20,000 nucleotides of DNA from an uncultured virus (IMG/VR IMGVR_UViG_3300032288_004063) (lineage: Duplodnaviria > Heunggongvirae > Uroviricota > Caudoviricetes). The position numbers were made by a program, and so were the translations under genes. Numbering within the stretch: position 1 is the stretch's first letter; the number at the start of each line of letters is the position of its first letter. The notes under the pieces are model-generated. The model saw nothing but the letters and a program-made list of their open reading frames with translations, had not been told where the DNA came from and did no database searches. Below, one piece after another: positions 4,397 to 20,000 of this stretch. The DNA is taken from IMG/VR virus record IMGVR_UViG_3300032288_004063; one strand, written 5' to 3'.

Positions 4397-4425
4397 TTGA
4401 CATATTCAACGAACCAAGATATAAT
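4397..4425 (+). promoter_or_regulatory. sigma70-type early promoter
   Basis: Perfect TTGACA (4397-4402)-N17-TATAAT (4420-4425). Confidence 0.9.
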
Positions 4426-4455
4426 CTGAATACAAACTCAATAAGGAGAAGTGGA

Positions 4456-4815
4456 ATGAAGACTTTCAAGAACATGGCTGCGCAGGGTGATTTCATCATC
4501 ATGCGCGTGGACAATCTTCCCAAGGGACTTGAGAAGATCGATCCAAAGAACAACACCTATACGGTGGCACACTCGGAGACTGGTCATGACCACGTGATGG
4601 TCATGGAGCGTCCTGGCACCGTCGAGGCTTTCAAGGAGAAGGGTGCCAGCGACGTTGATCTCTATGAGATGTTTCTGCTGGTAACGGAGGATACTCCGAT
4701 TGAGCATAGGCGCGCATGGGACACCCATGAGACTCTGCTTGTTCCTCCTGGAAAGTACAAGATCCGTCGTCAGCGTGAGTATGTGCCGGAGGGTTTCCGC
4801 AAGGCTGCTGACTGA
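4456..4815 (+). CDS. His-rich conserved protein (QGD...HSETGHxH...H..H...RRQREY), partner gene of DUF6745-like proteins
   Basis: AAGGAG RBS; motif set recalled from proteins encoded next to DUF6745 genes; probable metal-binding His cluster (inference). Confidence 0.8.
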   Translation: MKTFKNMAAQGDFIIMRVDNLPKGLEKIDPKNNTYTVAHSETGHDHVMVMERPGTVEAFKEKGASDVDLYEMFLLVTEDTPIEHRRAWDTHETLLVPPGKYKIRRQREYVPEGFRKAAD

Positions 4816-4882
4816 TCCTGAATTCCTGAGCGATGTTTGCTTAGAGCGGTTGGAGAATTAGTTCTCGCGAACCGCATTTTTT
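4806..4882. other. structured element copy 1 (hairpin with U-tract on + strand, may also terminate)
   Basis: TTAGA-GCGGTT-G-GAGAA-ttag-TTCTC-GCG-AACCGC-ATTTTTT; related copy at 9208-9266. Confidence 0.6.
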
Positions 4883-4886
4883 CTGC

Positions 4887-4915
4887 TTGACAATACCAAT
4901 CATACATCGTATCAT
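4887..4915 (+). promoter_or_regulatory. sigma70-type early promoter
   Basis: TTGACA (4887-4892)-N17-TATCAT (4910-4915). Confidence 0.8.
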
Positions 4916-4944
4916 ACATTCACACTAATCATACAGAGGAAAAC

Positions 4945-5808
4945 ATGACGAAGAAGCTTACCAGTCTTACCAAGAACCAGACCGAGGCGATGCCGAAGTA
5001 TGTCACTAAGTGGGTTGACATTGGCCTTTCCACGGAGCCTGTGGATTTCGAGAAGGCCAAGGGTCTCGTAGCAAAGGCATATACTGCCGTTGGTCTTCCT
5101 GAGCCAAAGAAGTATCATTTCGCGAAGGGTCCAGATGAGGGCTTTAAGATCTTCAAGAAGCGTTCTGGCAACAAGAGCCGTTCGGACTATACGGCTGGTT
5201 GCATGTTCGGTTCGATGGAAGCTTCTTGGCTTTCCTATTACGATTACTATCGTAACGAGACCAATATCGAACTGACTGACATCAGCTATATGCAGGAGCT
5301 GGCTCGGAACTGTGGCTGGGTTTACTGTGGCGAGACCGAGGCGATTATTCATGATCGTCCCGAGGTCATCAAGTTTGATGACCGTCGTCTGTCTCATTGC
5401 GAGACTGGTCCGGCAATTCGGTATCGCGATGGCTTTGAGATCTATTCGTGGCATGGTCTGACCATTCCTGACGAGTGGATCAAGGACCGCAAGAGCCTGA
5501 CCGCGAAGGTTGCTCTTGGTCAGACCAACGCGGAGCTGCGTCGTGCTGCGTGTGAGATCCTGGGTTGGGCTAATGTCATCGATCAGCTTGATTCGACGGT
5601 GATTGATGAGGATGCTGATGAGATGATCGGCACTCTGCTGGAAGTCAATATTCCAGACATTGGCAAGGAGAAGTTTCTTTTCGTGAAGTGTGGCACGGGA
5701 CGTAACTTTGCGCTTCCTGTTCCGCCAGACATGAAGACTGCTCTTGAGGCTAACGCCTGGACGTATGGTCTGAAGCCCGCTGAGTATGTTCCAGAGGTTC
5801 GTACCTGA
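4945..5808 (+). CDS. DUF6745-like domain protein
   Basis: KW..IGLSTEP.D...A...Y..VGL.EP; WLSYYDYY; DRPE....D...SHCETGPAIRYRDGF..YSWHG; NAELRR; C-terminal VKCGTGR.FALPVPP..TALEANAWTYGL...EY.P..RT. Confidence 0.8.
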   Translation: MTKKLTSLTKNQTEAMPKYVTKWVDIGLSTEPVDFEKAKGLVAKAYTAVGLPEPKKYHFAKGPDEGFKIFKKRSGNKSRSDYTAGCMFGSMEASWLSYYDYYRNETNIELTDISYMQELARNCGWVYCGETEAIIHDRPEVIKFDDRRLSHCETGPAIRYRDGFEIYSWHGLTIPDEWIKDRKSLTAKVALGQTNAELRRAACEILGWANVIDQLDSTVIDEDADEMIGTLLEVNIPDIGKEKFLFVKCGTGRNFALPVPPDMKTALEANAWTYGLKPAEYVPEVRT

Positions 5809-5821
5809 GTGAGGGTGAGGG

Positions 5822-5851
5822 AAACAGCGGCGAAAGCCGCTGTTTTCTTTT
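5822..5851 (+). terminator. intrinsic terminator
   Basis: AAACAGCGGC-GAAA-GCCGCTGTTT followed by TCTTTT. Confidence 0.85.
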
Positions 5852-5856
5852 GTGTC

Positions 5857-6027
5857 ATGAAGTCAGTCATAGATCAAGTCTTCGATCAAGTCAGAGATCA
5901 AGTCTTCGATCAAGTCAGAGATCAAGTCGAGAGTCAAGCCTGGTATCAAGTCGGGGATCAAGTCTTGAGTCAAGTCTTGCATCAAGTCTGGGATCAAGTC
6001 TTCTCCAAAGCGAGAACTGAATCATGA
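5857..6027 (+). CDS. QV-repeat miniprotein A1
   Basis: MKSVIDQVFDQV...KARTES; no RBS, directly after terminator. Confidence 0.6.
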   Translation: MKSVIDQVFDQVRDQVFDQVRDQVESQAWYQVGDQVLSQVLHQVWDQVFSKARTES

Positions 6028-6194
6028 AATCAGTCAAAGATCAAATCTGTAGCCAACTCGATGACCAAGTCTCAAATCAAGTCTTGCGTCAAGTCTTGTT
6101 TCAAGTCTACATACAAGTCTTTGATCAAGTCAGGTTTCAAGTCTGGATTCAAGTTGGACGTAAAGTCTTGTCCAAAGCGAGAACTGAATCATGA
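6024..6194 (+). CDS. QV-repeat miniprotein A2 (not in ORF track)
   Basis: MKSVKDQICSQL...QVWIQVGRKVLSKARTES. Confidence 0.7.
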   Translation: MKSVKDQICSQLDDQVSNQVLRQVLFQVYIQVFDQVRFQVWIQVGRKVLSKARTES

Positions 6195-6385
6195 AATCAG
6201 TCGAACATCAAGTAAAGAAACAAGTCTATTATCAAGTCGATGATCAAGTCAGGCGTCAAGTCGGGCGTCAAATCTGGAATCAAGTCTATCGTCAAGTCGG
6301 AGATCAAGTCTATCATCAATTCGGAGAACAAGTCGTGCGTAAAGTCTGGCATCAAGTCTGGCATAAAAAGAGATCCAAATCATGA
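6191..6385 (+). CDS. QV-repeat miniprotein A3
   Basis: MKSVEHQV...; ATGA coupled. Confidence 0.7.
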   Translation: MKSVEHQVKKQVYYQVDDQVRRQVGRQIWNQVYRQVGDQVYHQFGEQVVRKVWHQVWHKKRSKS

Positions 6386-6576
6386 AATCAGTCAGAGATC
6401 AAGTCAGAGATCAAGTCGAGAGTCAAGTCTTCGAACAAGTCGGGGATCAAGTTAGAGATCAAGTCGAGAGTCAAGTCTGGTATCAAGTCGGGGATCAAGT
6501 CGGGGATCAAGTCTTGAGTCAAGTCTGGAATAGAATTGAGCGTAGAGTCTGGGACAAAGCGAGATTCAAACAATGA
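6382..6576 (+). CDS. QV-repeat miniprotein A4
   Basis: MKSVRDQV...KARFKQ. Confidence 0.7.
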   Translation: MKSVRDQVRDQVESQVFEQVGDQVRDQVESQVWYQVGDQVGDQVLSQVWNRIERRVWDKARFKQ

Positions 6577-6755
6577 ATTCAGTCATAGATCAAATCAAAG
6601 ATCAAGTTGCGGATCATGTCTATGATCAAGTCTTGAATCAAGTCACTGGTCAAGTCTATTACCAAGTCCAAAATCAAGTCTGGTATCAAATCGAGGTTCA
6701 AGTCGGCAGTCAAGTCAGATATCAAATTTCGGATAAAACGAGTGCTGAAGCATGA
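6573..6755 (+). CDS. QV-repeat miniprotein A5
   Basis: MNSVIDQI...KTSAEA. Confidence 0.7.
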   Translation: MNSVIDQIKDQVADHVYDQVLNQVTGQVYYQVQNQVWYQIEVQVGSQVRYQISDKTSAEA

Positions 6756-6934
6756 AATCAGTCATAAAACAAGTCAGAGGAAAAGTCTGGAATCAAGTCT
6801 TTGATCAAGTCGAGCGTCAAGTCACGGATGAAGTCGAGGATCAAGTCTGCGATCAAGTCAGAAATCAAATCACGGATCAAGTCGGGGATCAAGTCTGGCT
6901 TGAAGTCTTGCATAAAGCGAGAACCCATCCATGA
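6752..6934 (+). CDS. QV-repeat miniprotein A6
   Basis: MKSVIKQV...KARTHP. Confidence 0.7.
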   Translation: MKSVIKQVRGKVWNQVFDQVERQVTDEVEDQVCDQVRNQITDQVGDQVWLEVLHKARTHP

Positions 6935-7137
6935 AATCGGTCAAAGATCAAGTCTGGATTCGAGTCGCGGAACAAGTCTCATGTCAAGTCTTGCATCAAG
7001 TCTTGCATCAAGTCTATTATCAAGTCTGGAATCAAGTCCAAAATAAAATCTGGCATCAAGTCGAGAATCAAGTCTTGGATCAAGTCTGGTCTAAAGTCTG
7101 GATTCAATCCTCGGAAGAAACGAAAATCGAACCATGA
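6931..7137 (+). CDS. QV-repeat miniprotein A7
   Basis: MKSVKDQV...EETKIEP. Confidence 0.7.
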   Translation: MKSVKDQVWIRVAEQVSCQVLHQVLHQVYYQVWNQVQNKIWHQVENQVLDQVWSKVWIQSSEETKIEP

Positions 7138-7340
7138 AATCAGTCAAAGATCAAGTCTTGAATCAAGTCGGAAATCAAGTCTGGAGTCAATTCTATGGTC
7201 CAGTCGAACATAAAGTCTTGATTCAAGTCAGGAATCAAGTCTGGGATAAAGTCGAGCGTCAAGTTTGGCGGGAAGTCAACCATAAAGTCGAGATTCAGGT
7301 CAGGGGTGAAGGCCGGTCCAAAGCGAGAACCGAACCATGA
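7134..7340 (+). CDS. QV-repeat miniprotein A8
   Basis: MKSVKDQV...KARTEP. Confidence 0.7.
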   Translation: MKSVKDQVLNQVGNQVWSQFYGPVEHKVLIQVRNQVWDKVERQVWREVNHKVEIQVRGEGRSKARTEP

Positions 7341-7513
7341 AATCAGTCAAAAGTCAATTCTATGATCAAGTCTGGAATCAAGTCGGGGATCAAGTCTGGA
7401 ATCAGGTCGTGCATCAAGTCTCGTCAGATGATCAAGTCTTGGATCAAGTCGGGGATCAAGTCCTGAGTCAAGTCTTGACTAAAGTCGAGTATAAAGTAAG
7501 AACCAAATTATGA
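7337..7513 (+). CDS. QV-repeat miniprotein A9 (not in ORF track)
   Basis: MKSVKSQFYDQV...KVRTKL. Confidence 0.7.
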   Translation: MKSVKSQFYDQVWNQVGDQVWNQVVHQVSSDDQVLDQVGDQVLSQVLTKVEYKVRTKL

Positions 7514-7704
7514 AATCAGTTAATGACAAAGTCTATAATCAAGTCAGGCGTCAAGTCAGGCGTCAAGTCTATGTTCAAGTCTCGCGTAAAGTCTTGGATC
7601 AAGTTGAGGAACAAGTCTGGGATCAAGTCTATGGTCAAACCTTGCTTCAAGTCTATTGGGAAGTCGTGCGTAAAGTCGTGACTAAAGTGAGTGCCGAACC
7701 ATGA
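7510..7704 (+). CDS. QV-repeat miniprotein A10
   Basis: MKSVNDKV...KVSAEP. Confidence 0.7.
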   Translation: MKSVNDKVYNQVRRQVRRQVYVQVSRKVLDQVEEQVWDQVYGQTLLQVYWEVVRKVVTKVSAEP

Positions 7705-7883
7705 ATTCAGTCAGAAACAAAGTCTGGTATGATGTCTTGGATGAAGTCCGGGATAAAATCGAGGAACAAGTCTGGGATCAAGTCTGGTATCAAATCTGGG
7801 ATCAAGTCTGGAATCAAGTCGAGGAACAAGTCTGGGATCAAGTTCATGATAAAGTCTTGGATAAAGCGAAAACCGAACCATGA
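7701..7883 (+). CDS. QV-repeat miniprotein A11
   Basis: MNSVRNKV...KAKTEP. Confidence 0.7.
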   Translation: MNSVRNKVWYDVLDEVRDKIEEQVWDQVWYQIWDQVWNQVEEQVWDQVHDKVLDKAKTEP

Positions 7884-8038
7884 AATCAGTCAGAAACCAA
7901 GTCTATCATCAAGTCAGATATCAAGTCTGGGATCAAGTCTATGATCAAGTCTCAAATCGAGTTTTTAATCAAGTTGCGAATCAAGTCGTGGATAAAGTCA
8001 ATGATCAAATCTGGGATAAAGTGAGAACCGAACCATGA
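7880..8038 (+). CDS. QV-repeat miniprotein A12 (not in ORF track)
   Basis: MKSVRNQVYHQV...KVRTEP. Confidence 0.7.
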   Translation: MKSVRNQVYHQVRYQVWDQVYDQVSNRVFNQVANQVVDKVNDQIWDKVRTEP

Positions 8039-8181
8039 AATCAGTCTATGATCAAGTCTATGATCAAGTCTATGAACAAGTCTGTGTTGAAGTCCGCAGC
8101 CAAGTCTTGAATAAAGTATCGTTTCATGTTTTTGGTCATATCTTGACTAAAGTTTGGTTTAAAGTGTTAACCAAACCATGA
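8035..8181 (+). CDS. QV-repeat miniprotein A13 (not in ORF track)
   Basis: MKSVYDQVYDQV...KVLTKP. Confidence 0.65.
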   Translation: MKSVYDQVYDQVYEQVCVEVRSQVLNKVSFHVFGHILTKVWFKVLTKP

Positions 8182-8372
8182 AACCAGTCGCATACCAAGT
8201 CAAAAATCAAGTCTTGCGTCAATTCTCAGGTCAAGTCTCATTTCAAGTCTATGATCAAGTCGAGTTGCAAATCGGGCGTCAAATCAAAGATCAAGTCTAC
8301 GATCAAGTCTTTGATCAAGTCTGGTCTAAAGTCTGGATTCAATCTTGGGAAGAAACGAAAACCGAACCATGA
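8178..8372 (+). CDS. QV-repeat miniprotein A14
   Basis: MKPVAYQV...EETKTEP. Confidence 0.7.
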   Translation: MKPVAYQVKNQVLRQFSGQVSFQVYDQVELQIGRQIKDQVYDQVFDQVWSKVWIQSWEETKTEP

Positions 8373-8551
8373 AATCAGTCCATGATAAATTGTTTTCCGA
8401 TCCGACTATGAATTGTTGGAATGAGGTGTCTCTTCAAACAAGTAGAAAAGCACGAAACAAAATTCGTGATGAAACTATTTTTGAAGTCAAGAAATGTGGA
8501 CTAAGAAATTGTCTACACACAGTTCTTCGCGAAATCGAAAAAGAAGATTGA
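8369..8551 (+). CDS. divergent terminal array member A15
   Basis: MKSVHDKLFSDP...; keeps head, length and ATGA coupling but has lost QV repeats. Confidence 0.65.
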   Translation: MKSVHDKLFSDPTMNCWNEVSLQTSRKARNKIRDETIFEVKKCGLRNCLHTVLREIEKED

Positions 8552-8578
8552 TTTCATTGGGCAATTTAGGCCCTTGAC
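8548..8578 (+). repeat. 31-bp direct repeat, left copy
   Basis: TTGATTTCATTGGGCAATTTAGGCCCTTGAC; 30/31 identical to 9286-9316. Confidence 0.9.
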
Positions 8579-9207
8579 GGAGCTTCATCCAAGCAATAAT
8601 ACTCCTTAACAATTCTTCTCTTTTCCCCCTCTTTTCTCCTTTTTTCCCAATAAGATTTCATGTTGGCCGATAGCTTCGTTCTGGTTTCAATTGAAGCTGG
8701 ATTTTTTTTATGACGCGCCTGCGTCGCGGCCGATAGCTTTTTTCTTGTTTCTAGTGAGACTATATTTTTTTCATGATATGCTTTCAATGCATTAGACAAC
8801 TTGGCTTTAGTTTCTAATGTAGTGGAAATTCCCTTACGCGGAGACGACATTCCTTTACGCGAAAATCCGGATGCCTTCAAACGTGCAATTAGGGTCTCTC
8901 GCTCCTCTGGAGTCAGTTTTCTTTTAGATTTATATCCTATACCATCACCCCCATTAGTTCTATTTCTAAGAATACCTGTGCCTATGTCTTTTCGTCCATA
9001 CCAAGAAATGTATCTACGTTCTAAAGCAAAAGCTCCAATCTCAGATAGTTCTTTTTCCATTAGAATAATTCTATTGGCATTTTTTGGTACACTTATCTCA
9101 TTTGGTTTCTTTTTCCAAGCACGATTTCCAGTTCCTTTACCAATGTAATAAGGTGTGCCATCCTCGCGCAGGTAGGCATAAACGTAGAATCTAAATAGGT
9201 CTGGCAT
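8566..9207 (-). CDS. free-standing GIY-YIG homing endonuclease (Seg-like) with NUMOD3-like repeats
   Basis: [19 protein letters not shown]...[18 protein letters not shown]; three xxETR/KxKLS repeats; AAGGAG RBS; opposite strand to neighbours. Confidence 0.88.
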
Positions 9208-10039: not shown

Positions 10040-10432
10040 ATGATTCCCAAGGTTGGCACAGAGATCACGGTCAAGATCCGCAATCCAATGGCGGATCATA
10101 GGCATCTGTATGCGGACGGTGTCATTGCCGAGCACAGCATTGTCTCTGGCACCGTCTATCCCCTTCAGAAGTGGCAGGATCCTCGCAAGGTCTTCAATCT
10201 TGCAACGGGTCGTCCAAGCTTTCCATTCCGAACGATTGATCTGGATCGTGTCGTAGCCATGAATGGCAAGCTGGCCAAGAAGGTCGAGCGTCAGGTGCCG
10301 CAGACGCGCGTGTGGACTATCCAGGGATCCAAGGGTGCCGTGTATACGCTGACTGAGGTTGCTGGAAAGCGTAGCTGCACCTGTCCAGGGTTTACGTTTA
10401 GGTCATCTTGCAAGCACGTTTTGGGCCCTTGA
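10040..10432 (+). CDS. SWIM zinc-finger protein
   Basis: WTIQGSKGAVYTL...SCTCPGFTFRSSCKHV (CxC-x8-CxH); AGGAG RBS. Confidence 0.85.
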   Translation: MIPKVGTEITVKIRNPMADHRHLYADGVIAEHSIVSGTVYPLQKWQDPRKVFNLATGRPSFPFRTIDLDRVVAMNGKLAKKVERQVPQTRVWTIQGSKGAVYTLTEVAGKRSCTCPGFTFRSSCKHVLGP

Positions 10433-10478
10433 CATTGTTCGGTGTGCCATCTATACTGACCACATGATGAAGGAGACA
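10429..10478 (+). promoter_or_regulatory. repeated early promoter-leader cassette, copy 1
   Basis: TTGACA-N17-TATACT-GACCACATGATGAAGGAGACA. Confidence 0.9.
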
Positions 10479-10481
10479 ACG

Positions 10482-10829
10482 ATGCAGGACTTGGAAATGC
10501 CCACCCAGATGCCCGTCTATGACATGGACATTGCGCTAACGAAGTATGCCGACTACATCATCAGCAAGGCTCCGCATACGACTCAGCCACGGCCTGGGTA
10601 TAGCAAGCCCTATTTTTCATTTGAATCCGGTTCCAAATATATTCGTGCGGTGAAGTTGGATGGATCGTCACGATCCGCCTATGCCTTCATCGTTCTGCGA
10701 AACACCGACAAGTTTCTGGTCGGTGATATTCTGAAGCCTGCTTCGTGGAAGACGCCTGCCACCAACTTTGCCCGCGGCAATGTGCTGCGGCCGCATACCT
10801 ATCAGTATCATAGCTACTACGGCCTGTGA
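10482..10829 (+). CDS. conserved T4-like phage hypothetical protein (GDILKPASWKxPA family)
   Basis: GSKYIR...SAYAFI...GDILKPASWKTPA..ARGNV; start after cassette RBS. Confidence 0.8.
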   Translation: MQDLEMPTQMPVYDMDIALTKYADYIISKAPHTTQPRPGYSKPYFSFESGSKYIRAVKLDGSSRSAYAFIVLRNTDKFLVGDILKPASWKTPATNFARGNVLRPHTYQYHSYYGL

Positions 10830-15012: not shown

Positions 15013-15180
15013 ATGAAACCAGTCGCGGATGAAATTGAAAATCACACCAAGTTTCTAATCGAAAGACAGGTCATGAAACAAACCAATAGTGCGGTGTATC
15101 ATGAGATTTGGGGAGAAGTATCAGATCCAGTCTGGGACCATTGGAGTCAGATTCTGAATGCCATTACCGATGGAACCTAA
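15013..15180 (+). CDS. divergent array member B1 (not in ORF track)
   Basis: MKPVADEIENH...QILNAITDGT; TAA two codons before the usual ATGA junction. Confidence 0.6.
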   Translation: MKPVADEIENHTKFLIERQVMKQTNSAVYHEIWGEVSDPVWDHWSQILNAITDGT

Positions 15181-15182
15181 TC

Positions 15183-15365
15183 ATGAAATCCGTCAAAGAT
15201 GGAATTGCATATTGGGTCAGAGACTGTGTCCTCAAAGAAGTCGTAAGTCAAGTGGCTTCTGATGATTTTACTTTATCATATCATGTGATCTTTGATACTA
15301 ATCCGGCTTGTGGCAGAGTCTGGGGTCAGATTCTGGATGCATTTACCGATGGAACCAAACCATGA
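15183..15365 (+). CDS. divergent array member B2
   Basis: MKSVKDGIAYWV...QILDAFTDGTKP. Confidence 0.65.
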   Translation: MKSVKDGIAYWVRDCVLKEVVSQVASDDFTLSYHVIFDTNPACGRVWGQILDAFTDGTKP

Positions 15366-15544
15366 AATCGGTCAAAGATCAAGTCAGGACTCAAGTCGCA
15401 ATTTCAGTCTTGAAACAAGTCTGGGATCAAATCCCAAGTCAAGTCGTGAATAAAGTCGAACATCAAGTCTGGGATCAAGTCTTGGATGAAGTCGAGGATC
15501 AAGTCAGAGATAAAGTCTGCTCCAAAACGAGTACCGAACCATGA
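15362..15544 (+). CDS. QV-repeat miniprotein B3
   Basis: MKSVKDQV...KTSTEP. Confidence 0.7.
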   Translation: MKSVKDQVRTQVAISVLKQVWDQIPSQVVNKVEHQVWDQVLDEVEDQVRDKVCSKTSTEP

Positions 15545-15747
15545 AATCAGTCAAAGATCAAGTCAGAAACCAAGTCAGTCGTCAAGTCTCGCATCAAGTC
15601 TTTTTTCAAGTCTCGCATCAAGTCTTTTATAAAGTCAATGATCAAGTCAGGATTCAAGTCATGGATCAAGTCGATGAACAAGTCTGGTCTAAAGTCGAGG
15701 AACAAGTCTTTTGTAAAGTCTTGGATAAAGCGAGAGCCGAATCGTGA
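15541..15747 (+). CDS. QV-repeat miniprotein B4
   Basis: MKSVKDQV...KARAES. Confidence 0.7.
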   Translation: MKSVKDQVRNQVSRQVSHQVFFQVSHQVFYKVNDQVRIQVMDQVDEQVWSKVEEQVFCKVLDKARAES

Positions 15748-15926
15748 AATCCGCCAAATTTCAGATCACAAATCAAGTCATGCGTCGAGTCATAGACGAA
15801 GTCCTGAAACAAGTTGATATCCAAGTTTATAATCAAGTCCAGTATCAAGTCATGGATCAGGTCTTGCATCAAGTCTTTGATCAAGTCTTGGTCGAAGTCT
15901 TCAATAAAGCGAAAACCGAACCATGA
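15744..15926 (+). CDS. QV-repeat miniprotein B5
   Basis: GTG start in a GTGA overlap; ...KAKTEP. Confidence 0.7.
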   Translation: MKSAKFQITNQVMRRVIDEVLKQVDIQVYNQVQYQVMDQVLHQVFDQVLVEVFNKAKTEP

Positions 15927-16129
15927 AATCAGTCATAAATCAAGTCAGACTTGAAGTCGAGCGTCAAGTCTTGCTTCAAGTCAGAAATCAAGTCGGAAAT
16001 CAAGTCGAGAATCTAGTCTATCGTCAAGTCTGGCGTCAAGTCCAAGATCAAGTCTATGGTCAAGTCAGGCGTCAAGTCGAGGATCAAATCTTGTATCAAG
16101 TCTGGCGTCAATTCTATGGTCCAAATTGA
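15923..16129 (+). CDS. QV-repeat miniprotein B6 (out-of-register tail)
   Basis: Ends QFYGPN*, 10 nt before the next start. Confidence 0.65.
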   Translation: MKSVINQVRLEVERQVLLQVRNQVGNQVENLVYRQVWRQVQDQVYGQVRRQVEDQILYQVWRQFYGPN

Positions 16130-16139
16130 GAATCAATCC

Positions 16140-16349
16140 ATGAAATCAATCAAAAACCAAGTCTATGATCAAGTCAGAGAACAAGTCGCGAGTCATGTTT
16201 TGAATCAAGTCAGGGACCGTCAAGTCAGAGAACAAGTGTGGGAACAAGTTTACGATCAAGTTTGGGATCAACTCTGGAAACTAGGCCTTGAACAAGTCGA
16301 AGAACGATTTTTCAGACCAGTCTCTGATAAAACGAAAACCGAACCATGA
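16140..16349 (+). CDS. QV-repeat miniprotein B7
   Basis: MKSIKNQV...KTKTEP. Confidence 0.7.
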   Translation: MKSIKNQVYDQVREQVASHVLNQVRDRQVREQVWEQVYDQVWDQLWKLGLEQVEERFFRPVSDKTKTEP

Positions 16350-16537
16350 AACCAGTCATAAACCAAGTCCGAGATCAAGTCTATGGTCAAGTCTGGGATG
16401 AAGTCTATGGTCCAGTCAAGCATGAAATGTTCGATTTAGTCGCGAATCAAGTCTATGATGAAGTCGATCAGCGTGTAGGCCAAGTCAGAATCCAAGTCTT
16501 GAATAAAGTCTGGCATGAAGCGAGAACCGAATCATGA
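16346..16537 (+). CDS. QV-repeat miniprotein B8
   Basis: MKPVINQV...EARTES. Confidence 0.7.
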   Translation: MKPVINQVRDQVYGQVWDEVYGPVKHEMFDLVANQVYDEVDQRVGQVRIQVLNKVWHEARTES

Positions 16538-16704
16538 AATCAGTCAAATATCAAGTCCATGCTCAAGTCAGGCATCAAGTCGATGATAAAGTCTGGAATC
16601 AAGTCAGGGATCAAGTTCAGCTTCAAGTCAATCGTCAAATCTGGCGTCAAGTCTGGAATCAAGTTGAGGTTCGAGTCTTGTCCAAAGCGAGAACCGAACC
16701 ATGA
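16534..16704 (+). CDS. QV-repeat miniprotein B9 (not in ORF track)
   Basis: MKSVKYQVHAQV...KARTEP. Confidence 0.7.
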   Translation: MKSVKYQVHAQVRHQVDDKVWNQVRDQVQLQVNRQIWRQVWNQVEVRVLSKARTEP

Positions 16705-16883
16705 AATCAGTCACATATCAAGTCGAGAGTCAAGTCTGGCATCAAGTCCGGCGTCAGGTCGTGCATCAGGTCGTGCATCAGGTCGATGATCAAGTCTGGC
16801 ATCAAGTCAGAATTTCAACCAGCAATCAAGTCTGGATTCAAGTTGAACGTAAAGTCTTGTCCAAAGCGAGTGCGGAACCATGA
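16701..16883 (+). CDS. QV-repeat miniprotein B10
   Basis: MKSVTYQV...KASAEP. Confidence 0.7.
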   Translation: MKSVTYQVESQVWHQVRRQVVHQVVHQVDDQVWHQVRISTSNQVWIQVERKVLSKASAEP

Positions 16884-17062
16884 ATTTAGTCAGAAACCAA
16901 GTCCGAGATCAAGTCAGAGAACAAGTCGCGAGTCAAATCGGACATCAAGTCTTCGATCAAGCTTATGTCAATATCTCGGATCAAGTAATGCATCAAGTCC
17001 ATGCTCAAGTCTGGAATCAAACCGGGCGTCAAGTCTTGAATAAAGCGAGAACCGAATCATGA
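16880..17062 (+). CDS. QV-repeat miniprotein B11
   Basis: MNLVRNQV...KARTES. Confidence 0.7.
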   Translation: MNLVRNQVRDQVREQVASQIGHQVFDQAYVNISDQVMHQVHAQVWNQTGRQVLNKARTES

Positions 17063-17265
17063 AACCAGTCAAATATCGAGTCTTTTATCAACCCAGGGAT
17101 CAAGTCGAGAATCAATTCCATAATCAAGTCAGAGATCCAGTCCGGGATCAAGTTTGGGATCATGACTGGCATAAAGTCATGAATCAAGTCCGGGTTCAAG
17201 TTGCGGATCAAGTCTGGATTACAGTTGGATATAAAGTCTTGGATAAAGTCAGGTACGAATCATGA
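17059..17265 (+). CDS. QV-repeat miniprotein B12
   Basis: MKPVKYRV...KVRYES. Confidence 0.7.
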   Translation: MKPVKYRVFYQPRDQVENQFHNQVRDPVRDQVWDHDWHKVMNQVRVQVADQVWITVGYKVLDKVRYES

Positions 17266-17444
17266 ATTCAGTCAGAAACCAAGTCTGGTATAAAGTCACG
17301 GATCAAGTCCATGCTCAAGTATGGAATCAAGTCTTGTATCAAGTCTGGCGTGAAGTCGGGCATCAAGTCGAGGTACAAGTCTCTGATCAAGTCGAGGATC
17401 AAGTCGTGCGTAGAGTCTGGGATAAAGCGAGAATCGAATCATGA
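17262..17444 (+). CDS. QV-repeat miniprotein B13
   Basis: MNSVRNQV...KARIES. Confidence 0.7.
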   Translation: MNSVRNQVWYKVTDQVHAQVWNQVLYQVWREVGHQVEVQVSDQVEDQVVRRVWDKARIES

Positions 17445-17635
17445 ATTCAGTCAGAATCCAAGACTTGCGTCAAGTCCAGATTCAATTCCATAACCAAGTC
17501 TTCGATCAAGTCGAGCGTCAAGCCAGGCACCAAGTCTATGGTCCAGTCTTGGTTCAAGTCTGGAATCAAGTCTATGGTCAAGTCTTGGATCAAGTCGTGC
17601 GTAGAGTCTGCGATAAAGCGAGAACCGAATCATGA
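17441..17635 (+). CDS. QV-repeat miniprotein B14
   Basis: MNSVRIQD...KARTES. Confidence 0.7.
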   Translation: MNSVRIQDLRQVQIQFHNQVFDQVERQARHQVYGPVLVQVWNQVYGQVLDQVVRRVCDKARTES

Positions 17636-17814
17636 ATTCAGTCAGAAACCAAGTCCGAGATCAAGTCTTGAATGAAATCGATGACCAAGCCTTGAATCAA
17701 GTCTCGCATAAAATTCTGCGTCAAGTCTATGGTTCAGTCGGAGATCCAGTCTCTGATCAAGTCGATGATCAAGTCTGGGATCAAGTCTGGGATAAAGCGA
17801 GATCCAAACAATGA
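17632..17814 (+). CDS. QV-repeat miniprotein B15
   Basis: MNSVRNQV...KARSKQ. Confidence 0.7.
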   Translation: MNSVRNQVRDQVLNEIDDQALNQVSHKILRQVYGSVGDPVSDQVDDQVWDQVWDKARSKQ

Positions 17815-18005
17815 AATCAGTCAAACATCAAGTCGCGGATCAAGTCTGGAATCAAGTCTATGGTCAAGTCTTGGACCAAGTCGAGCGTCAAGTCTTTTAT
17901 CGAGTCGCGTTTAAAGTCCGTGTTAAAGTCGCGGATCAAGTCTATGAACAAGTCAGATTTCAAGTCGTAAATAAAGTCTGGCATAAAGCGAGAACCAAAC
18001 AATGA
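17811..18005 (+). CDS. QV-repeat miniprotein B16
   Basis: MKSVKHQV...KARTKQ. Confidence 0.7.
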   Translation: MKSVKHQVADQVWNQVYGQVLDQVERQVFYRVAFKVRVKVADQVYEQVRFQVVNKVWHKARTKQ

Positions 18006-18184
18006 AATCAGTCATAAATCAAGTCAGGAATAAAGTCAGAGATAAAGCCCATGGTCAAATCAGGCGTAAAGTCTTGGATAAAGTTGAGGAACCAGTCTGG
18101 GATCAAATCATAATTCAAGTCTATCGTCAAGTCTATGTTCAAGTCTCGCGTAAAGTCTTGGATAAAGCGAGGACCAAACCATGA
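18002..18184 (+). CDS. QV-repeat miniprotein B17
   Basis: MKSVINQV...KARTKP. Confidence 0.7.
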   Translation: MKSVINQVRNKVRDKAHGQIRRKVLDKVEEPVWDQIIIQVYRQVYVQVSRKVLDKARTKP

Positions 18185-18363
18185 AACCAGTCAGAAACAA
18201 AGTCCGAGATCAAGTCTATTTTCAAGTCCATGATCAAGTCTCATATCAATTCCAGGATCAATTCCAGGATCAAGTCTGGGATAAAGTCAAGAAACAAGTC
18301 AGGTCTCAAGTCTGGCATCAAGTTGGCCGTCAAGTCTTGTCCAAATTGAGAATCAATCCATGA
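18181..18363 (+). CDS. QV-repeat miniprotein B18
   Basis: MKPVRNKV...SKLRINP. Confidence 0.7.
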   Translation: MKPVRNKVRDQVYFQVHDQVSYQFQDQFQDQVWDKVKKQVRSQVWHQVGRQVLSKLRINP

Positions 18364-18530
18364 AACCAGTCAAAAACCAAGTCAGAGAACAAGTCTTGGA
18401 TCAATTCTGGGATCAAGTCTATGGTCAAGTCTGTCATCAAGTCAATCGTCAAGTCAATCGTCAAGTCTATGGTCAAGTCTGGATTCAAGTCTTGGATCAA
18501 GTCAGGCATAAAGCGAGAACCAAACAATGA
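18360..18530 (+). CDS. QV-repeat miniprotein B19 (not in ORF track)
   Basis: MKPVKNQV...KARTKQ. Confidence 0.7.
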   Translation: MKPVKNQVREQVLDQFWDQVYGQVCHQVNRQVNRQVYGQVWIQVLDQVRHKARTKQ

Positions 18531-18715
18531 AATCAGTCAGGCGTCAAGTCCGGGATCAATTCTTGGATCAAGTCTGGGATCAAGTCTGGGATCAAGTCTA
18601 TGGTCAAGTCTGTCATCAAGTCAATCGTCAAGTCTATGGTCAAGTCTTGGATCCTCTTCAAGTCAATCGTCAAGTCTATGGTCAAGTCTTGTTCAAAGCG
18701 AGAGAAGAACCATGA
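18527..18715 (+). CDS. QV-repeat miniprotein B20
   Basis: MKSVRRQV...KAREEP. Confidence 0.7.
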   Translation: MKSVRRQVRDQFLDQVWDQVWDQVYGQVCHQVNRQVYGQVLDPLQVNRQVYGQVLFKAREEP

Positions 18716-18894
18716 AATCAGTCAAAGACCAAGTCAGGAAAACAGTCATAGATCAAGTCAGATATCAAGTCTGGGATCAAGTCCAAGATCAAGTCTGGAA
18801 TCAAGTCTGGAATCAAGTCTGGCATCAAGTTGGCCGTCAAGTCTGGGATCAAGTTGGTCGTCAAGTCTTGTCCAAATTGAGAATCAATCCATGA
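18712..18894 (+). CDS. QV-repeat miniprotein B21
   Basis: MKSVKDQV...SKLRINP. Confidence 0.7.
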   Translation: MKSVKDQVRKTVIDQVRYQVWDQVQDQVWNQVWNQVWHQVGRQVWDQVGRQVLSKLRINP

Positions 18895-19082
18895 ATTCAG
18901 TCAGAAACGAAATCTGGAATAGAATTAGGAACAGATTCGACTTTGAAGTCGATATTCAAGTCGCACCTCAAGTATGGAATCAAGCCTATGATAAATTCGA
19001 TCAAGTCAAGAATCGAATCGACAATGAATTCTGGTTTATTGTCGTAAATCGAGTCTGGGATAGAGCGGGAGAAGAACCATGA
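18891..19082 (+). CDS. semi-divergent array member B22
   Basis: MNSVRNEIWNRI...RAGEEP. Confidence 0.7.
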   Translation: MNSVRNEIWNRIRNRFDFEVDIQVAPQVWNQAYDKFDQVKNRIDNEFWFIVVNRVWDRAGEEP

Positions 19083-19267
19083 AACCAGTCAGGGAACAAG
19101 TCTGGGATAAAGTCGAGGAACAAGTCTTGATTGATATTGAGGATCAAGTCGAGCGTCATGTCGATATGCAAGTTTACCGTCTAATCTTGCGTCCAGTAAT
19201 GTTAATGCTTCAATCTGATATGCGAGTCTATGATAAAGTCTTGGATAGAGCGGGAGAAGAACCATGA
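19079..19267 (+). CDS. semi-divergent array member B23
   Basis: MKPVREQV...RAGEEP. Confidence 0.7.
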   Translation: MKPVREQVWDKVEEQVLIDIEDQVERHVDMQVYRLILRPVMLMLQSDMRVYDKVLDRAGEEP

Positions 19268-19434
19268 AATCAGTCAAAAGTCAAGTCTGGGATCAAGTCG
19301 TAAATCAAATCGGAGATCAAGTCTGGAATCAAGTCTTGGATCAAGTCTGGAATCAAGTCAGGCGTCAAGTCTGGAATCAAGTCTGGAGTCGAGTCGGCTA
19401 CAAAGTCTTGTCCAAAGCGAGAACCGAACAATGA
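19264..19434 (+). CDS. QV-repeat miniprotein B24 (not in ORF track)
   Basis: MKSVKSQVWDQV...KARTEQ. Confidence 0.7.
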   Translation: MKSVKSQVWDQVVNQIGDQVWNQVLDQVWNQVRRQVWNQVWSRVGYKVLSKARTEQ

Positions 19435-19613
19435 AATCTGTCAGAAACCAAGTCAGAATCCAAGTCTCGCGTCAAGTCCAATATCAAGTCTGGGAGCAAG
19501 TCTGGATTCAAGTCTTGGATCAATTTAGACATCAAGTCTTGCATCAAGTCCGGATTCAAGTCTGGGATCAAGTTGGACATAAAGTCTTGAATAGAGCGAG
19601 AACCGAACCATGA
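19431..19613 (+). CDS. QV-repeat miniprotein B25
   Basis: MKSVRNQV...RARTEP. Confidence 0.7.
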   Translation: MKSVRNQVRIQVSRQVQYQVWEQVWIQVLDQFRHQVLHQVRIQVWDQVGHKVLNRARTEP

Positions 19614-19804
19614 AATCTGTCAAAGATCAAGTCAGAAATCAAGTCAGAAATCAAGTCTATGGTCAAGTCAGAGATCAAGTCTTGAATCAAGTCTGGGAGC
19701 AAGTCTGGGATCAAGTCGAGGTTGAAGTCGATAGTCAAGTCTGGGATAAAGTTGAGATTCAAGTCAGGGGTGAAGGTTGGTCCGAGGCGAGACTTGAACA
19801 ATGA
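19610..19804 (+). CDS. QV-repeat miniprotein B26
   Basis: MKSVKDQV...EARLEQ. Confidence 0.7.
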   Translation: MKSVKDQVRNQVRNQVYGQVRDQVLNQVWEQVWDQVEVEVDSQVWDKVEIQVRGEGWSEARLEQ

Positions 19805-19992
19805 AACCAGTCATAAACCAAGTCAGAAATCAAGTCGAGGAACAAGTCTGGAATCAATTCAGGTATAAAGTCGAAGGACAAATCTGGTATGTCCAGGATC
19901 AAGTCTGGTATAAAATTAGGGAACAAGTCTTGCGTCAAGTCTGGATTCAAGTTGGGCGTAAAGTCGAGAATAAAGCGAGATCCAAACAATGA
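19801..19992 (+). CDS. QV-repeat miniprotein B27
   Basis: MKPVINQV...KARSKQ; next unit begins at 19989. Confidence 0.7.
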   Translation: MKPVINQVRNQVEEQVWNQFRYKVEGQIWYVQDQVWYKIREQVLRQVWIQVGRKVENKARSKQ

Positions 19993-20000
19993 AATCAGTC

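What the first reader, a model, noticed from the sequence alone, without database searches (positions are those of the whole stretch)
4397..8551. DUF6745-like gene pair heads the array, and its usual internal QV-repeat segment appears to be externalised as separate minigenes
Seen: two promoter-driven genes (4456-4815, His-rich QGD/RQREY protein; 4945-5808, DUF6745-like) sit immediately before array 1. From memory, not verified here: many DUF6745 proteins carry a low-complexity 'QVWDQVRDQV'-type tract between the N-terminal GLSTEP..P segment and the G..xAxWLxFY motif. This copy has only about 25 non-repetitive residues at that position (about 5130-5205) and no QV repeats. Inference: a split system in which a constant core and a metal-binding partner work with interchangeable QV modules supplied in trans, or the array acts as a cassette reservoir for, or derived from, a repeat-bearing DUF6745 gene. 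This is the best candidate for an undescribed system in the window.
Basis: partly seen in the sequence, partly recalled or inferred. Interest (0 to 1): 0.88.

Follow-up and report, generated by a model that had tools for sequence, protein, structure and literature searches.

The report
Detached DUF6745 repeat mini-gene library
An uncultured T4-like phage has a repeat-less copy of an unstudied early protein (DUF6745) with its small histidine-rich partner, and encodes the four-amino-acid repeat that relatives carry inside that protein as dozens of separate, fast-diversifying mini-genes whose function is still unknown.

Summary
4456-4815 encodes a 119-aa His-motif protein. 4945-5808 encodes a DUF6745 protein (Pfam E 9.5e-31) with no repeat tract. 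Both have near-consensus promoters, and a conserved terminator separates them from array 1.

44 of 150 family representatives carry an x-x-(Q/S/A/N)-(V/L/T) tetrapeptide tract at that position. A window mini-protein used as query finds almost only DUF6745 proteins: 111 of the 120 listed hits carry PF20530.

Across 78 sequence clusters, 0 of 23 tract-bearing genes have mini-gene arrays, against 37 of 55 tract-less genes. This contrast rests on few independent events. One of them is a phage with x-N-A-T mini-genes nested inside an x-x-A-T tract clade.

The 42 complete units in the window are all intact ORFs, and 38 of 41 junctions are ATGA overlaps. Synonymous sites are nearly fixed, while changes between related phages are mostly non-synonymous.

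So the "externalised tract" reading is supported. Action in trans is untested, and the cassette-reservoir idea is disfavoured. Function is unknown. DUF6745 matches no solved fold. The closest studied analogue, Tweety gp54, a tunable counter-defence protein, is not homologous.

No paper describing this was found. This scan has noted the same arrangement in other genomes.

The parts
4397..4425 (+). sigma-70-like promoter of the partner gene (TTGACA-17-TATAAT)
   Evidence: 12 of 12 consensus matches. This is a consensus match only; no transcript data were available.
4456..4815 (+). 119-aa His-motif partner protein (AAQGD, HSETGHxH, DTHE, RRQREY)
   Evidence: phrog_27831 at E 6e-11; no Pfam, NCBIfam, PADLOC or PDB match. 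A homologue lies in the locus in 70 of 78 DUF6745 clusters and is adjacent on the same strand in 65. Invariant H39, E41, H44, H46, H84, H91 and R105-Q-R-E108 across 36 sequences. Window versus L006: 30 synonymous against 7 non-synonymous codon differences.
4887..4915 (+). sigma-70-like promoter of the DUF6745 gene (TTGACA-17-TATCAT)
   Evidence: 11 of 12 consensus matches.
4945..5808 (+). repeat-less (short-form) DUF6745 protein, 287 aa
   Evidence: PF20530 at E 9.5e-31; phrog_31813. No period-4 tract. AlphaFold2 model with pLDDT 95.1 and pTM 0.85. No solved-structure match. Window versus L006: 74 synonymous against 25 non-synonymous codon differences.
5826..5853 (+). intrinsic-terminator-like hairpin plus T-run between DUF6745 and array 1
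   Evidence: 7-pair stem, GAAA loop, TTTTCTTTT tail. The stem is identical in L004 and L006.
5857..8372 (+). array 1: 14 chained x-x-Q-V mini-genes of 48-68 aa. Units: 5857-6027, 6024-6194, 6191-6385, 6382-6576, 6573-6755, 6752-6934, 6931-7137, 7134-7340, 7337-7513, 7510-7704, 7701-7883, 7880-8038, 8035-8181, 8178-8372
   Evidence: Every junction is an ATGA stop/start overlap. Caps are MKSV... and ...KARTEP/S. The junction consensus AAAgcGAGAaccgAAcC|ATGAAATCAGTC comes from 37 junctions. The 12-nt unit is TGG GAT CAA GTC, with positions 6-12 conserved at 73-91%.
8369..8551 (+). 15th, degenerate unit: MKSV cap but a non-repetitive body
   Evidence: Chained by an ATGA overlap; translation shown.
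15013..20000 (+). array 2: two degenerate units, then 25 complete x-x-Q-V mini-genes and one unit cut by the window end
   Evidence: 24 of 27 junctions are ATGA overlaps and all units are open. It lies outside the finding's coordinates but belongs to the same mini-gene family.

Best explanation
Shown. This locus is the split form of a widespread phage and prophage early-gene module. The module has three parts:
- a DUF6745 protein, made of an N-terminal segment and a C-terminal domain;
- a small protein of about 115 aa with a histidine motif;
- a tetrapeptide-repeat polypeptide, x-x-(Q/S/A/N)-(V/L/T).
In roughly a third of family representatives the repeat is an internal tract of the DUF6745 protein. 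In this T4-like phage and a large clade of relatives the tract is absent from the protein. Instead it is encoded as free-standing mini-genes of about 50-70 aa, with fixed N- and C-terminal caps. At least 42 such units lie in this window.

Inferred: expression. The mini-genes are probably translated one after another by termination-reinitiation at ATGA overlaps, on read-through transcripts from the early promoters.

Inferred: evolution. The arrays evolve by unit birth and death, which keeps the Q-V codons uniform. The two x positions diversify under positive selection.

Most speculative: function. The module serves phage-host or phage-phage conflict. The mini-proteins would be a library of variable, probably helical, elements that act with the constant DUF6745/partner core. 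This would replace the single, length-tunable tract of the fused forms.

My confidence is about 0.85 for the split-module statement and about 0.35 for the conflict-library function.
For: The tract belongs to the family.
- 44 of 150 representatives have an internal period-4 tract starting near residue 70-80. Types include xxQV, xxSV, xxQL, xxAT, xxAV and xxSL.
- A 64-aa window mini-protein searched against longer proteins gave 301 hits at E<=0.01. 111 of the 120 listed carry PF20530. By my reading, most of the other 9 have the same N-terminal segment plus tract.
- The DNA unit is shared. Fused tracts read nGG-GaT/GcT-CAG-GTC; the window reads TGG-GAT-CAA-GTC. The TCAAGTC period-12 pattern also occurs inside DUF6745 genes of other viral records.

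Fused and split forms exclude each other.
- 0 of 23 tract-bearing clusters have arrays, against 37 of 55 tract-less clusters. Fisher p = 6e-9, not corrected for phylogeny.
- L013, which has x-N-A-T mini-genes, is nested with SH-aLRT support 99 in a clade of x-x-A-T tract genes.

The mini-genes are coding.
- All 42 complete units are open, where about 70 stops would be expected. They have conserved caps and ATGA junctions.
- The Q-V dipeptide is kept even where the codons differ: CAG in L058, L073 and L125, and GTA in L059.

The mini-genes diversify.
- Q is CAA in 329 of 342 codons, while other window genes use CAG in 65 of 82. V is GTC in 376 of 432 codons.
- Homologous units in the window and L004-L006 differ by 3 synonymous and 19 non-synonymous codons in 3 unique pairs. 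The DUF6745 gene shows 74 synonymous and 25 non-synonymous differences.
- Entropy at x1/x2 is 3.8/3.2 bits in the window, against 1.5-2.6/0-1.9 bits in 17 fused tracts with at least 8 tetrads.
- Array content differs between phages whose DUF6745 proteins are 98% identical.

Early or conflict context.
- Both genes have consensus promoters.
- Bacterial homologues sit in prophage early regions, beside S24 repressors, DNA methylases, P63C, YqaJ and integrases. DUF932 is the nearest neighbour in 7 loci, and in L112.
- The only studied tetrapeptide-repeat phage protein, Tweety gp54, is a tunable counter-defence factor (PMC9262239, passage).
Against: - No evidence here that the mini-proteins are made. 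The first unit has no ribosome site and sits just after a terminator. Internal units have only a weak GAGA motif.
- AlphaFold2 gives the fused tract as one long helix at pLDDT of only 43-56.
- Near-fixed synonymous sites could also reflect a nucleic-acid-level constraint.
- The non-synonymous excess rests on only 3 unique unit pairs.
- The exclusivity is largely one big viral clade (35 rows). Only 5 well-supported independent contrasts exist, and the sign test cannot reach significance.
- Arrays can lie far from the gene: array 2 is 9 kb away, and 6 of 20 records searched whole have QV-periodic DNA in arrays that lie more than 6 kb from the gene. So functional linkage is not proven.
- 15 clusters have neither a tract nor an array (for example MaMV-DC), so the repeat is dispensable for the core.
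- The counter-defence idea rests on analogy with a non-homologous protein. PADLOC gave no hit.
Confidence: 0.55

Rival explanations
1. The mini-proteins are autonomous. They descend from the DUF6745 tract but now work on their own, for example as decoys, inhibitors or amphipathic helices acting on host targets. They would need neither the DUF6745 core nor its partner.
For: Array 2 lies 9 kb from the gene and behind unrelated genes. In 6 of 20 records searched whole, QV-periodic DNA was found in arrays that lie more than 6 kb from DUF6745. Arrays are interspersed with unrelated genes in L303. 14 of 23 array-bearing records had no PF20530 hit, although all 14 are estimated at 6-44% complete. A terminator separates the gene from array 1.
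Against: All 3 array-bearing records that are at least 90% complete contain DUF6745. The 58-kb record with terminal repeats but no Pfam hit still has a 193-aa DUF6745-like N-terminal ORF 1.5 kb from its mini-genes. 32 of 35 short-form clusters have arrays in the same record, and the 3 without are fragments estimated at 8-14% complete. Arrays most often abut the gene or its partner.
Confidence: 0.2
2. Enzyme plus substrates. DUF6745 and/or the His-motif protein modify the repeat peptide. In fused forms the substrate is tethered; in split forms many substrate mini-genes are supplied, as with fused versus split precursor arrangements in some peptide natural-product pathways (recalled, not checked here).
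For: The partner has an invariant H-x-E...H set plus an RQRE motif. DUF6745 has nearly invariant H151, D162, C249 and R253. Many mini-genes accompany one core gene. The caps are conserved.
Against: No residue of the repeat is common to all tract types (xxQV, xxAT, xxAV, xSSL). No enzyme family or fold was detected for either protein. The tract is internal in fused forms, which is awkward for release of a product.
Confidence: 0.1
3. The arrays act as nucleic acid. They would be a repeated RNA (a sponge, or an antitoxin like the repeats of type III toxin-antitoxin systems) or a DNA binding-site array with the 7-mer TCAAGTC every 12 nt. The open frames would be secondary.
For: Positions 6-12 of the 12-mer are 73-91% conserved, including three synonymous sites, against the genome's own codon preference. 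The same CAAGTC is used in most related phages. The layout is gene, terminator, then repeat array. The ribosome sites are weak.
Against: Other lineages keep Q-V but change the codons (CAG, GTA, or a preceding C). Other clades use unrelated DNA for chemically similar tetrads. 42 of 42 units keep an open frame, a start, a stop and caps. Two units fold no better than shuffles, z = -0.26. No Rfam family matched.
Confidence: 0.07
4. Silent cassette reservoir. The units would be donors for recombination into a repeat-bearing DUF6745 expression gene, as in antigenic-variation systems.
For: The 12-nt unit is shared between arrays and fused tracts. Array content turns over quickly. The rest of this genome could not be examined.
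Against: The only DUF6745 gene seen here has no tract to receive cassettes. Each unit is a complete ORF with its own start, stop and caps. 0 of 23 tract-bearing clusters have arrays nearby.
Confidence: 0.04
5. Selfish or neutral minisatellite. The 12-bp repeat expands by slippage and has no function, and the ORFs are incidental.
For: Units are duplicated, lost and shuffled between near-identical phages, including two identical adjacent units in L004. Other frames are also largely open; one reverse frame has only 14 stops.
Against: There are zero stops where about 70 are expected, a precise ATGA at 38 of 41 junctions, and conserved caps. The arrays persist in phages whose DUF6745 proteins are only 45-66% identical. 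They occupy at least 7.5 kb of a phage genome.
Confidence: 0.04

Closest known systems
Fused DUF6745 proteins (Pfam PF20530, phrog_31813) with an internal tetrapeptide tract. Examples: P0130, P0134 and P0139; UOF77368.1 of MW202476.1 (xSSL); gp38 of Mycobacterium prophage prophiGD102-1 (xxQL)
   Same: Homologous N-terminal segment and C-terminal domain, at 45-50% identity in the C-domain. The His-motif partner is usually adjacent, although gp39 next to prophiGD102-1 gp38 is a different protein. The tetrad chemistry and often the 12-nt unit are the same.
   Different: In the fused proteins the repeat is one internal tract of 10-50 tetrads with low diversity: x1 is mostly W/R/G and x2 mostly D/A, D/N or S. 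Here the protein has no tract, and the repeat is present as at least 42 capped, separately translated and far more diverse mini-genes.
Mycobacteriophage Tweety gp54 (with Che8 gp57 and PMC gp51)
   Same: It is a phage protein built around 15-48 tetrapeptide repeats. Two residues are fixed and two vary, the third codon positions are invariant, and variation sits at first and second positions. The authors read this as selection for variation (PMC2884959, passages). Changes in repeat number retune it against the Phrann gp29/gp30 defence (PMC9262239, passage). It is the only functional precedent I found.
   Different: It is not homologous: no Pfam hit at E<=1 and hhalign probability 0.2% against the DUF6745 alignment. 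Its repeat is x-x-A-A joining two domains in one chain. There are no detached mini-genes and no His-motif partner next to it. The primary study, reference 79 of the review, was not seen.
DUF6745 + partner of Microcystis phages Ma-LMM01 and MaMV-DC (ORF161/ORF162)
   Same: It is the same two-gene module in cultured phages, located among replication genes.
   Different: The linker is long and non-repetitive. No QV-periodic DNA occurs anywhere in the 169-kb MaMV-DC genome.
Bordetella phage BMP-1 bbp36 variable region 2
   Same: It is a variable-copy short tandem repeat inside a non-essential phage gene, cited by the Tweety authors as a parallel (PMC2884959, passage).
   Different: Its unit is 24 bp and lies within a single gene. 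I did not examine it here, and no relation to DUF6745 was tested.

Membership tests
DUF6745 (Pfam PF20530) | Match to the PF20530 profile above its gathering score | tested here: met
   107.1 bits against a cut-off of 27, E 9.5e-31, profile positions 8-206 of 206.
DUF6745 (Pfam PF20530) | Family N-terminal segment (LTxEQ...IGLSTxP...SP) ahead of the domain | tested here: met
   It aligns over the full length with 51 short-form and 40 mixed relatives. G27, Y46, P54 and P63 are nearly invariant.
DUF6745 (Pfam PF20530) | Adjacent small His-motif partner gene (typical of the module, not part of the Pfam definition) | tested here: met
   4456-4815 lies directly upstream. The partner is adjacent in 65 of 78 clusters.
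DUF6745 (Pfam PF20530) | Internal tetrapeptide tract between the N-terminal segment and the domain (frequent, not defining) | tested here: not met
   The window protein has no period-4 stretch. 44 of 150 representatives have one.
Tweety gp54-type tunable tetrapeptide-repeat counter-defence proteins | Homology of the flanking N- and C-terminal regions | tested here: not met
   gp54 has no Pfam family at E<=1. hhalign against alignment A3 gives probability 0.2%.
Tweety gp54-type tunable tetrapeptide-repeat counter-defence proteins | 12-nt repeat with two fixed residues, invariant third codon positions, and variation at first and second positions | tested here: met
   (positions 6, 9 and 12 at 80-91%; positions 1-5 variable), compared with passages of PMC2884959.
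Tweety gp54-type tunable tetrapeptide-repeat counter-defence proteins | The repeat links two domains in one polypeptide, so that copy number sets their spacing | tested here: not met
   The repeat is absent from the window's DUF6745 and is encoded as separate ORFs.
Tweety gp54-type tunable tetrapeptide-repeat counter-defence proteins | Counter-defence activity, with escape mutants mapping to the repeat | not testable with these tools
   This needs a host, a defence system and plating assays.
Type III toxin-antitoxin (repeat-RNA antitoxin) | Tandem repeats that act as a structured RNA | tested here: inconclusive
   No Rfam family at gathering score. Two units have MFE z = -0.26 against shuffles.
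Type III toxin-antitoxin (repeat-RNA antitoxin) | Adjacent endoribonuclease toxin gene | tested here: inconclusive
   No PADLOC, Pfam or NCBIfam hit of that kind for the two head genes. Function is unknown, so it cannot be excluded.
Diversity-generating retroelement | Reverse transcriptase with a template/variable repeat pair | tested here: inconclusive
   No RT family among the 19 and 10 window ORFs scanned. Only part of the window's ORFs were scanned, and none of the rest of the genome.

The most novel reading that the evidence does not exclude
The phage carries a germline-encoded repertoire. More than 40 hypervariable helical mini-proteins would each plug, through their conserved caps, into one constant DUF6745/His-protein core. 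This would retarget a single counter-defence or host-takeover activity against many variants of a host or prophage factor. It would be a gene-array route to diversity, parallel to diversity-generating retroelements and to the repeat-number tuning of Tweety gp54.
Probability: 0.25. Interest if true: 0.9.

Novelty: new variant of a known kind. Interest (0 to 1): 0.8.

Why it matters
- DUF6745 is a very large family: 8591 representative clusters at E<=0.001. It occurs in phages and prophages of many phyla, has no known function, and its confident model matches no solved fold.
- The split form shows that the repeat is a separable part that can be amplified and diversified on its own.
- The arrays take up at least 7.5 kb of this 20-kb window. 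Their substitution pattern is dominated by non-synonymous change, which points to an arms-race role.
- If the mini-proteins are interchangeable specificity elements for a common core, this would be a new way for viruses to encode a repertoire. It would also offer a simple scaffold, with two variable residues per helical turn, for binder engineering.
- Practical point for annotation: all three forward frames and one reverse frame are largely open across these arrays. Gene callers and ORF extension therefore produce false long ORFs. My own first pass produced such false ORFs for L094 and L077.

Tried and rejected
- Own-genome search for a tract-bearing paralogue: the assembly is not held. The nearest record is an 8.8-kb fragment.

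Fold, family and sequence searches that found nothing.
- DUF6745 model: Foldseek against PDB, best E 0.66. VIA-align wide, best Z 4.5 over 54 residues. BFVD returned only other DUF6745 proteins.
- PDB sequence profiles for both proteins: nothing at or below E 0.2.
- PADLOC and NCBIfam: no hit for either protein.
- Pfam on 36 partner homologues at E<=1: only scattered chance hits.
- ESM Atlas: only unnamed viral clusters.
- A mini-protein searched against proteins of similar length: no candidate. This is probably a limit of the word filter on repeats.
- megablast of the locus and blastn of the array against 50,697 GenBank phage records: no match. The low-complexity filter may hide some matches.

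Structure and statistics.
- AlphaFold2 of a fused form: the tract is a single helix at pLDDT 43-56, too weak to use.
- The search for related loci with the 52-sequence alignment failed for lack of conserved stretches. I repeated it with an 11-sequence alignment.
- Phylogenetically independent contrasts: only 5 on supported branches, so there is no test power.

Apparent exceptions, checked and rejected.
- L094 and the second gene of L077 ('xxGS tracts') are ORF extensions into the alternative frame of an upstream mini-gene. I checked this for L094 and infer it for L077 from overlapping coordinates.
- The 'mini-genes' of L158 and L144 are unrelated low-complexity ORFs.
- L007 was scored as array-less by my strict filter but does have three QV mini-genes.

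Other ideas.
- RNA-level function: no Rfam hit and no excess folding.
- Literature: 'DUF6745', 'PF20530' and four QV peptide strings each returned 0 papers. Two phrase searches on tetrapeptide repeats, mini-genes and phage returned nothing relevant among the 15 and 5 papers listed.

Full report
**Observation.**
- 4456-4815 encodes a 119-aa protein with the motifs AAQGD, HSETGHDH, DTHE and RRQREY. It hits phrog_27831 at E 6e-11 and no Pfam family.
- 4945-5808 encodes a 287-aa protein. Residues 86-287 match Pfam DUF6745 (PF20530) at E 9.5e-31, 107 bits against a cut-off of 27.
- Each gene follows a near-consensus sigma-70-type site: 12 of 12 at 4397-4425 and 11 of 12 at 4887-4915. Each has a strong ribosome site.
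- The DUF6745 protein has no repeat tract.
- A terminator-like hairpin with a T-run at 5826-5853 follows its stop codon. The stem is identical in two relatives. The first mini-gene starts 8 nt later.
- The window comes from an uncultured T4-like phage. Its RNase H gene (860-1702) is 48% identical to those of cyanomyoviruses.

**The arrays.**
- Array 1 (5857-8551) is 15 ORFs chained by 14 ATGA stop/start overlaps.
- Array 2 (15013 to the window end) has 27 complete units plus one cut unit, and 24 of its 27 junctions are ATGA.
- Each unit reads MKSV-(x-x-Q-V)n-...KARTEP, with 48-69 residues.
- The junction consensus is AAAgcGAGAaccgAAcC|ATGAAATCAGTC. It offers only a weak GAGA motif where ordinary genes of the window have AGGAG. 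Translation would therefore depend on termination-reinitiation. This is an inference.

**Are the units coding?**
- All 42 complete units are open in the Q-V frame.
- From the base frequencies at the variable codon, I calculate about 0.155 stops per tetrad, or about 70 expected in 458 tetrads.
- The other forward frames contain 37 and 111 stops in the same interiors.
- One reverse frame has only 14 stops, so openness alone is not decisive. The regular starts, stops and caps are what single out the Q-V frame.

**The family.**
- DUF6745 is very large: 8591 representative clusters at E<=0.001.
- Of the best 150 representatives, 44 carry an internal period-4 tract beginning near residue 70-80. Types are xxQV, xxSV, xxQL, xxAT, xxAV, xxSL, xxNL, xxQM and xxNV.
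- The closest GenBank phage homologue (MW202476.1) has an xSSL tract encoded by different codons. The shared feature is thus the peptide pattern, variable / small-polar / Q,S,A / aliphatic, and not one DNA word.
- The tract is specific to this family. A 64-aa window mini-protein searched against longer proteins found 301 hits, and 111 of the 120 listed carry PF20530. Most of the remaining 9 show the same N-terminal segment plus tract with a divergent C-domain. One, P0386, differs.
- Fused QV tracts use nGG-GaT/GcT-CAG-GTC. The window uses TGG-GAT-CAA-GTC. The exact TCAAGTC period-12 pattern also occurs inside DUF6745 genes in other viral records.

**Fused versus split.**
I gathered 156 loci from viral contigs, GTDB genomes and GenBank phages. 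I reduced them to 78 clusters with a complete gene, removing copies at least 90% identical in the C-terminal 205 residues. After three corrections the classes are:
- 23 clusters with a tract;
- 37 without a tract but with tetrapeptide mini-genes in the record;
- 15 with a longer non-repetitive linker and no array;
- 3 short forms with no array seen, all on fragments estimated at 8-14% complete.

The three corrections were:
- L007 does have mini-genes.
- Five 'array-less' short-form clusters have QV-periodic DNA more than 6 kb away.
- L094's 'tract' is an ORF-extension artefact, and the 'mini-genes' of L158 and L144 are spurious.

No tract-bearing cluster has an array: 0 of 23 against 37 of 55. 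Fisher p = 6e-9, not corrected for phylogeny.

This count overstates the independent evidence. On the tree, 26 array-bearing rows (as first scored) sit in one viral clade of 35 rows. Only 5 well-supported independent contrasts exist, which is too few for a sign test.

The most telling single case is L013. Its DUF6745 gene is flanked by at least five x-N-A-T mini-genes. It nests with SH-aLRT support 99 among genes that carry x-x-A-T tracts internally: L015, L018, L111 and L116. Other arrays outside the main clade are L125 (x-A-Q-V, from a myxobacterial MAG contig), L059 and L057. The root is unknown, so fission cannot formally be told from fusion.

**Mode of evolution.**
- Within the window's mini-genes, Q is CAA in 329 of 342 codons, while 18 other ORFs of the window use CAG in 65 of 82. 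V is GTC in 376 of 432, and K is AAA in 137 of 142.
- Positions 6-12 of the 12-mer (T-CAA-GTC) are 73-91% conserved, including three synonymous sites. Positions 1-5 are close to saturated.
- Most related phages use the same CAAGTC. L058, L073 and L125 use CAG, and L059 uses GTA, each uniformly within its array. This fits concerted evolution of each array by birth and death of units better than a universal nucleotide motif.
- Between the window and phages whose DUF6745 is 91-98% identical, array content differs widely.
- The three unique homologous unit pairs differ by 3 synonymous and 19 non-synonymous codons, with no third-position excess. The DUF6745 gene shows 74 synonymous and 25 non-synonymous differences, and the partner 30 and 7.
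- Diversity at the two variable positions is 3.8 and 3.2 bits in the window, and 2.2-3.5 and 2.1-3.1 bits in nine other arrays. In 17 fused tracts with at least 8 tetrads it is 1.5-2.6 and 0-1.9 bits, with x1 mostly W/R/G(E) and x2 mostly binary.
- Detachment therefore goes with a shift from length variation of a simple tract to sequence diversification of units of fixed size.

**The core proteins.**
- The short form folds confidently (pLDDT 95.1, pTM 0.85). It has no match in PDB by Foldseek (best E 0.66), by an exhaustive aligner (best Z 4.5) or by sequence profile. The viral structure library returns only other DUF6745 proteins.
- In a fused form the tract is modelled as one helix of about 78 residues at pLDDT 43-56, which I do not rely on.
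- The partner lies in the locus in 70 of 78 clusters and is adjacent in 65, upstream in 22 and downstream in 43.
- The partner has invariant H39, E41, H44, H46, H84, H91 and R-Q-R-E in 36 sequences. This fits a metal site, but no family or structure was found.

**Genomic context.**
- Bacterial homologues lie in prophage early regions, beside S24 repressors, DNA methylases, P63C, YqaJ, HNH nucleases and integrases.
- In one genome a repressor, DUF6745 and the partner form a small island (L110).
- DUF932 is the nearest larger neighbour in 7 loci, and in L112.

**How it most likely works.**
- Shown: the repeat is a separable third part of the DUF6745 module. Here it is detached, multiplied and kept translatable.
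- Inferred: the units are translated in series and are under selection for diversity.
- Proposed: the mini-proteins act with the constant core as exchangeable variable elements in phage-host or phage-phage conflict.
- The proposal rests on early-gene placement, hypervariability, rapid turnover and one functional precedent. Tweety gp54 has N- and C-terminal regions flanking 40-48 tetrapeptide repeats, and escape mutants against the Phrann gp29/gp30 defence change the repeat number (PMC9262239, one passage read; sequence features in PMC2884959, passages read). I did not see the primary study.
- gp54 is not homologous to DUF6745. This is a 'works like' lead, not membership.
- A pure spacer role cannot apply to detached units.
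- Rivals are set out with their evidence in the Rival explanations section: autonomous mini-proteins, enzyme-substrate, nucleic-acid function, cassette reservoir and neutral minisatellite. The RNA reading is weakened by codon switching with a preserved peptide, no excess folding (z = -0.26) and no Rfam hit.

**Novelty and limits.**
- Searches for 'DUF6745', 'PF20530' and four QV peptide strings each returned 0 papers. Two phrase searches returned nothing relevant in their listings. Subscription journals are largely outside that library.
- No GenBank phage record matched the array by blastn, so no cultured model with arrays is known to me.
- Earlier notes of this scan describe the same split arrangement in other genomes. 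They also report predicted docking of a mini-protein onto the core. I could not test docking here and I treat those notes as leads.
- Expression and the rest of this genome could not be examined.

Noticed in passing
window 8566-9207 (-); L005:6788-7357 (-): A GIY-YIG-like homing-endonuclease ORF (phrog_15526 at E 5e-21; weak hit to phrog_314, homing endonuclease) sits right after array 1. In the close relative L005 a different NUMOD3 endonuclease gene is inserted between DUF6745 and its array. Array borders seem to attract homing genes.
   Followed up: partly
window 5850-8385 and 15400-20000, alternative frames: All three forward frames and one reverse frame are largely open across the arrays. 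They give false ORFs such as xIKS, xSSL and PDLI repeats of up to about 160 aa. ORF extension through such a frame created a false 'xxGS tract' in L094 and, by inference from overlapping coordinates, in the second gene of L077.
   Followed up: yes
L302:1881-5688 (a 58-kb virus record with terminal repeats): A 193-aa ORF resembling only the N-terminal half of DUF6745 lies beside three other features: an ORF with a P-loop-like GxxGxGKS motif, an ORF with an HExxH motif, and x-S-Q-V mini-genes of up to 122 aa. This may be a further variant of the module. I did not run family searches on it.
   Followed up: no
L001:8720-9043 (MW202476.1): A homologue of the His-motif partner (38% identity, E 3e-21) lies in an unannotated gap directly after the DUF6745 gene of this GenBank record.
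   Followed up: partly
L007:4145-5104, L018, L025, L037, L044, L050, L073, L112: DUF932 (PF06067) is the most frequent larger neighbour of the module. Cell-wall hydrolase (Hydrolase_2), ThyX and Rad52 genes also recur.
   Followed up: partly
fused tracts in L148, L105, L122, L099, L095, L138, L001: In fused tracts the first variable codon is almost always NGG or GAG (W/R/G/E), and the second varies at one base (D/A or D/N). Whole tracts are therefore built from about 4-6 variants of the 12-mer.
   Followed up: partly
window 860-1702; 10040-10432; 10359-10829: These ORFs are a T4-type RNase H / 5'-3' exonuclease (48% identical to cyanomyovirus Rnh), a SWIM zinc-finger ORF and a DUF7717 ORF. This is an early region with many small genes.
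   Followed up: partly
L077:1570-4046: This viral contig carries two DUF6745 genes separated by three mini-genes (x-D-Q-V and x-x-R-V types). The start of the second gene is uncertain.
   Followed up: no
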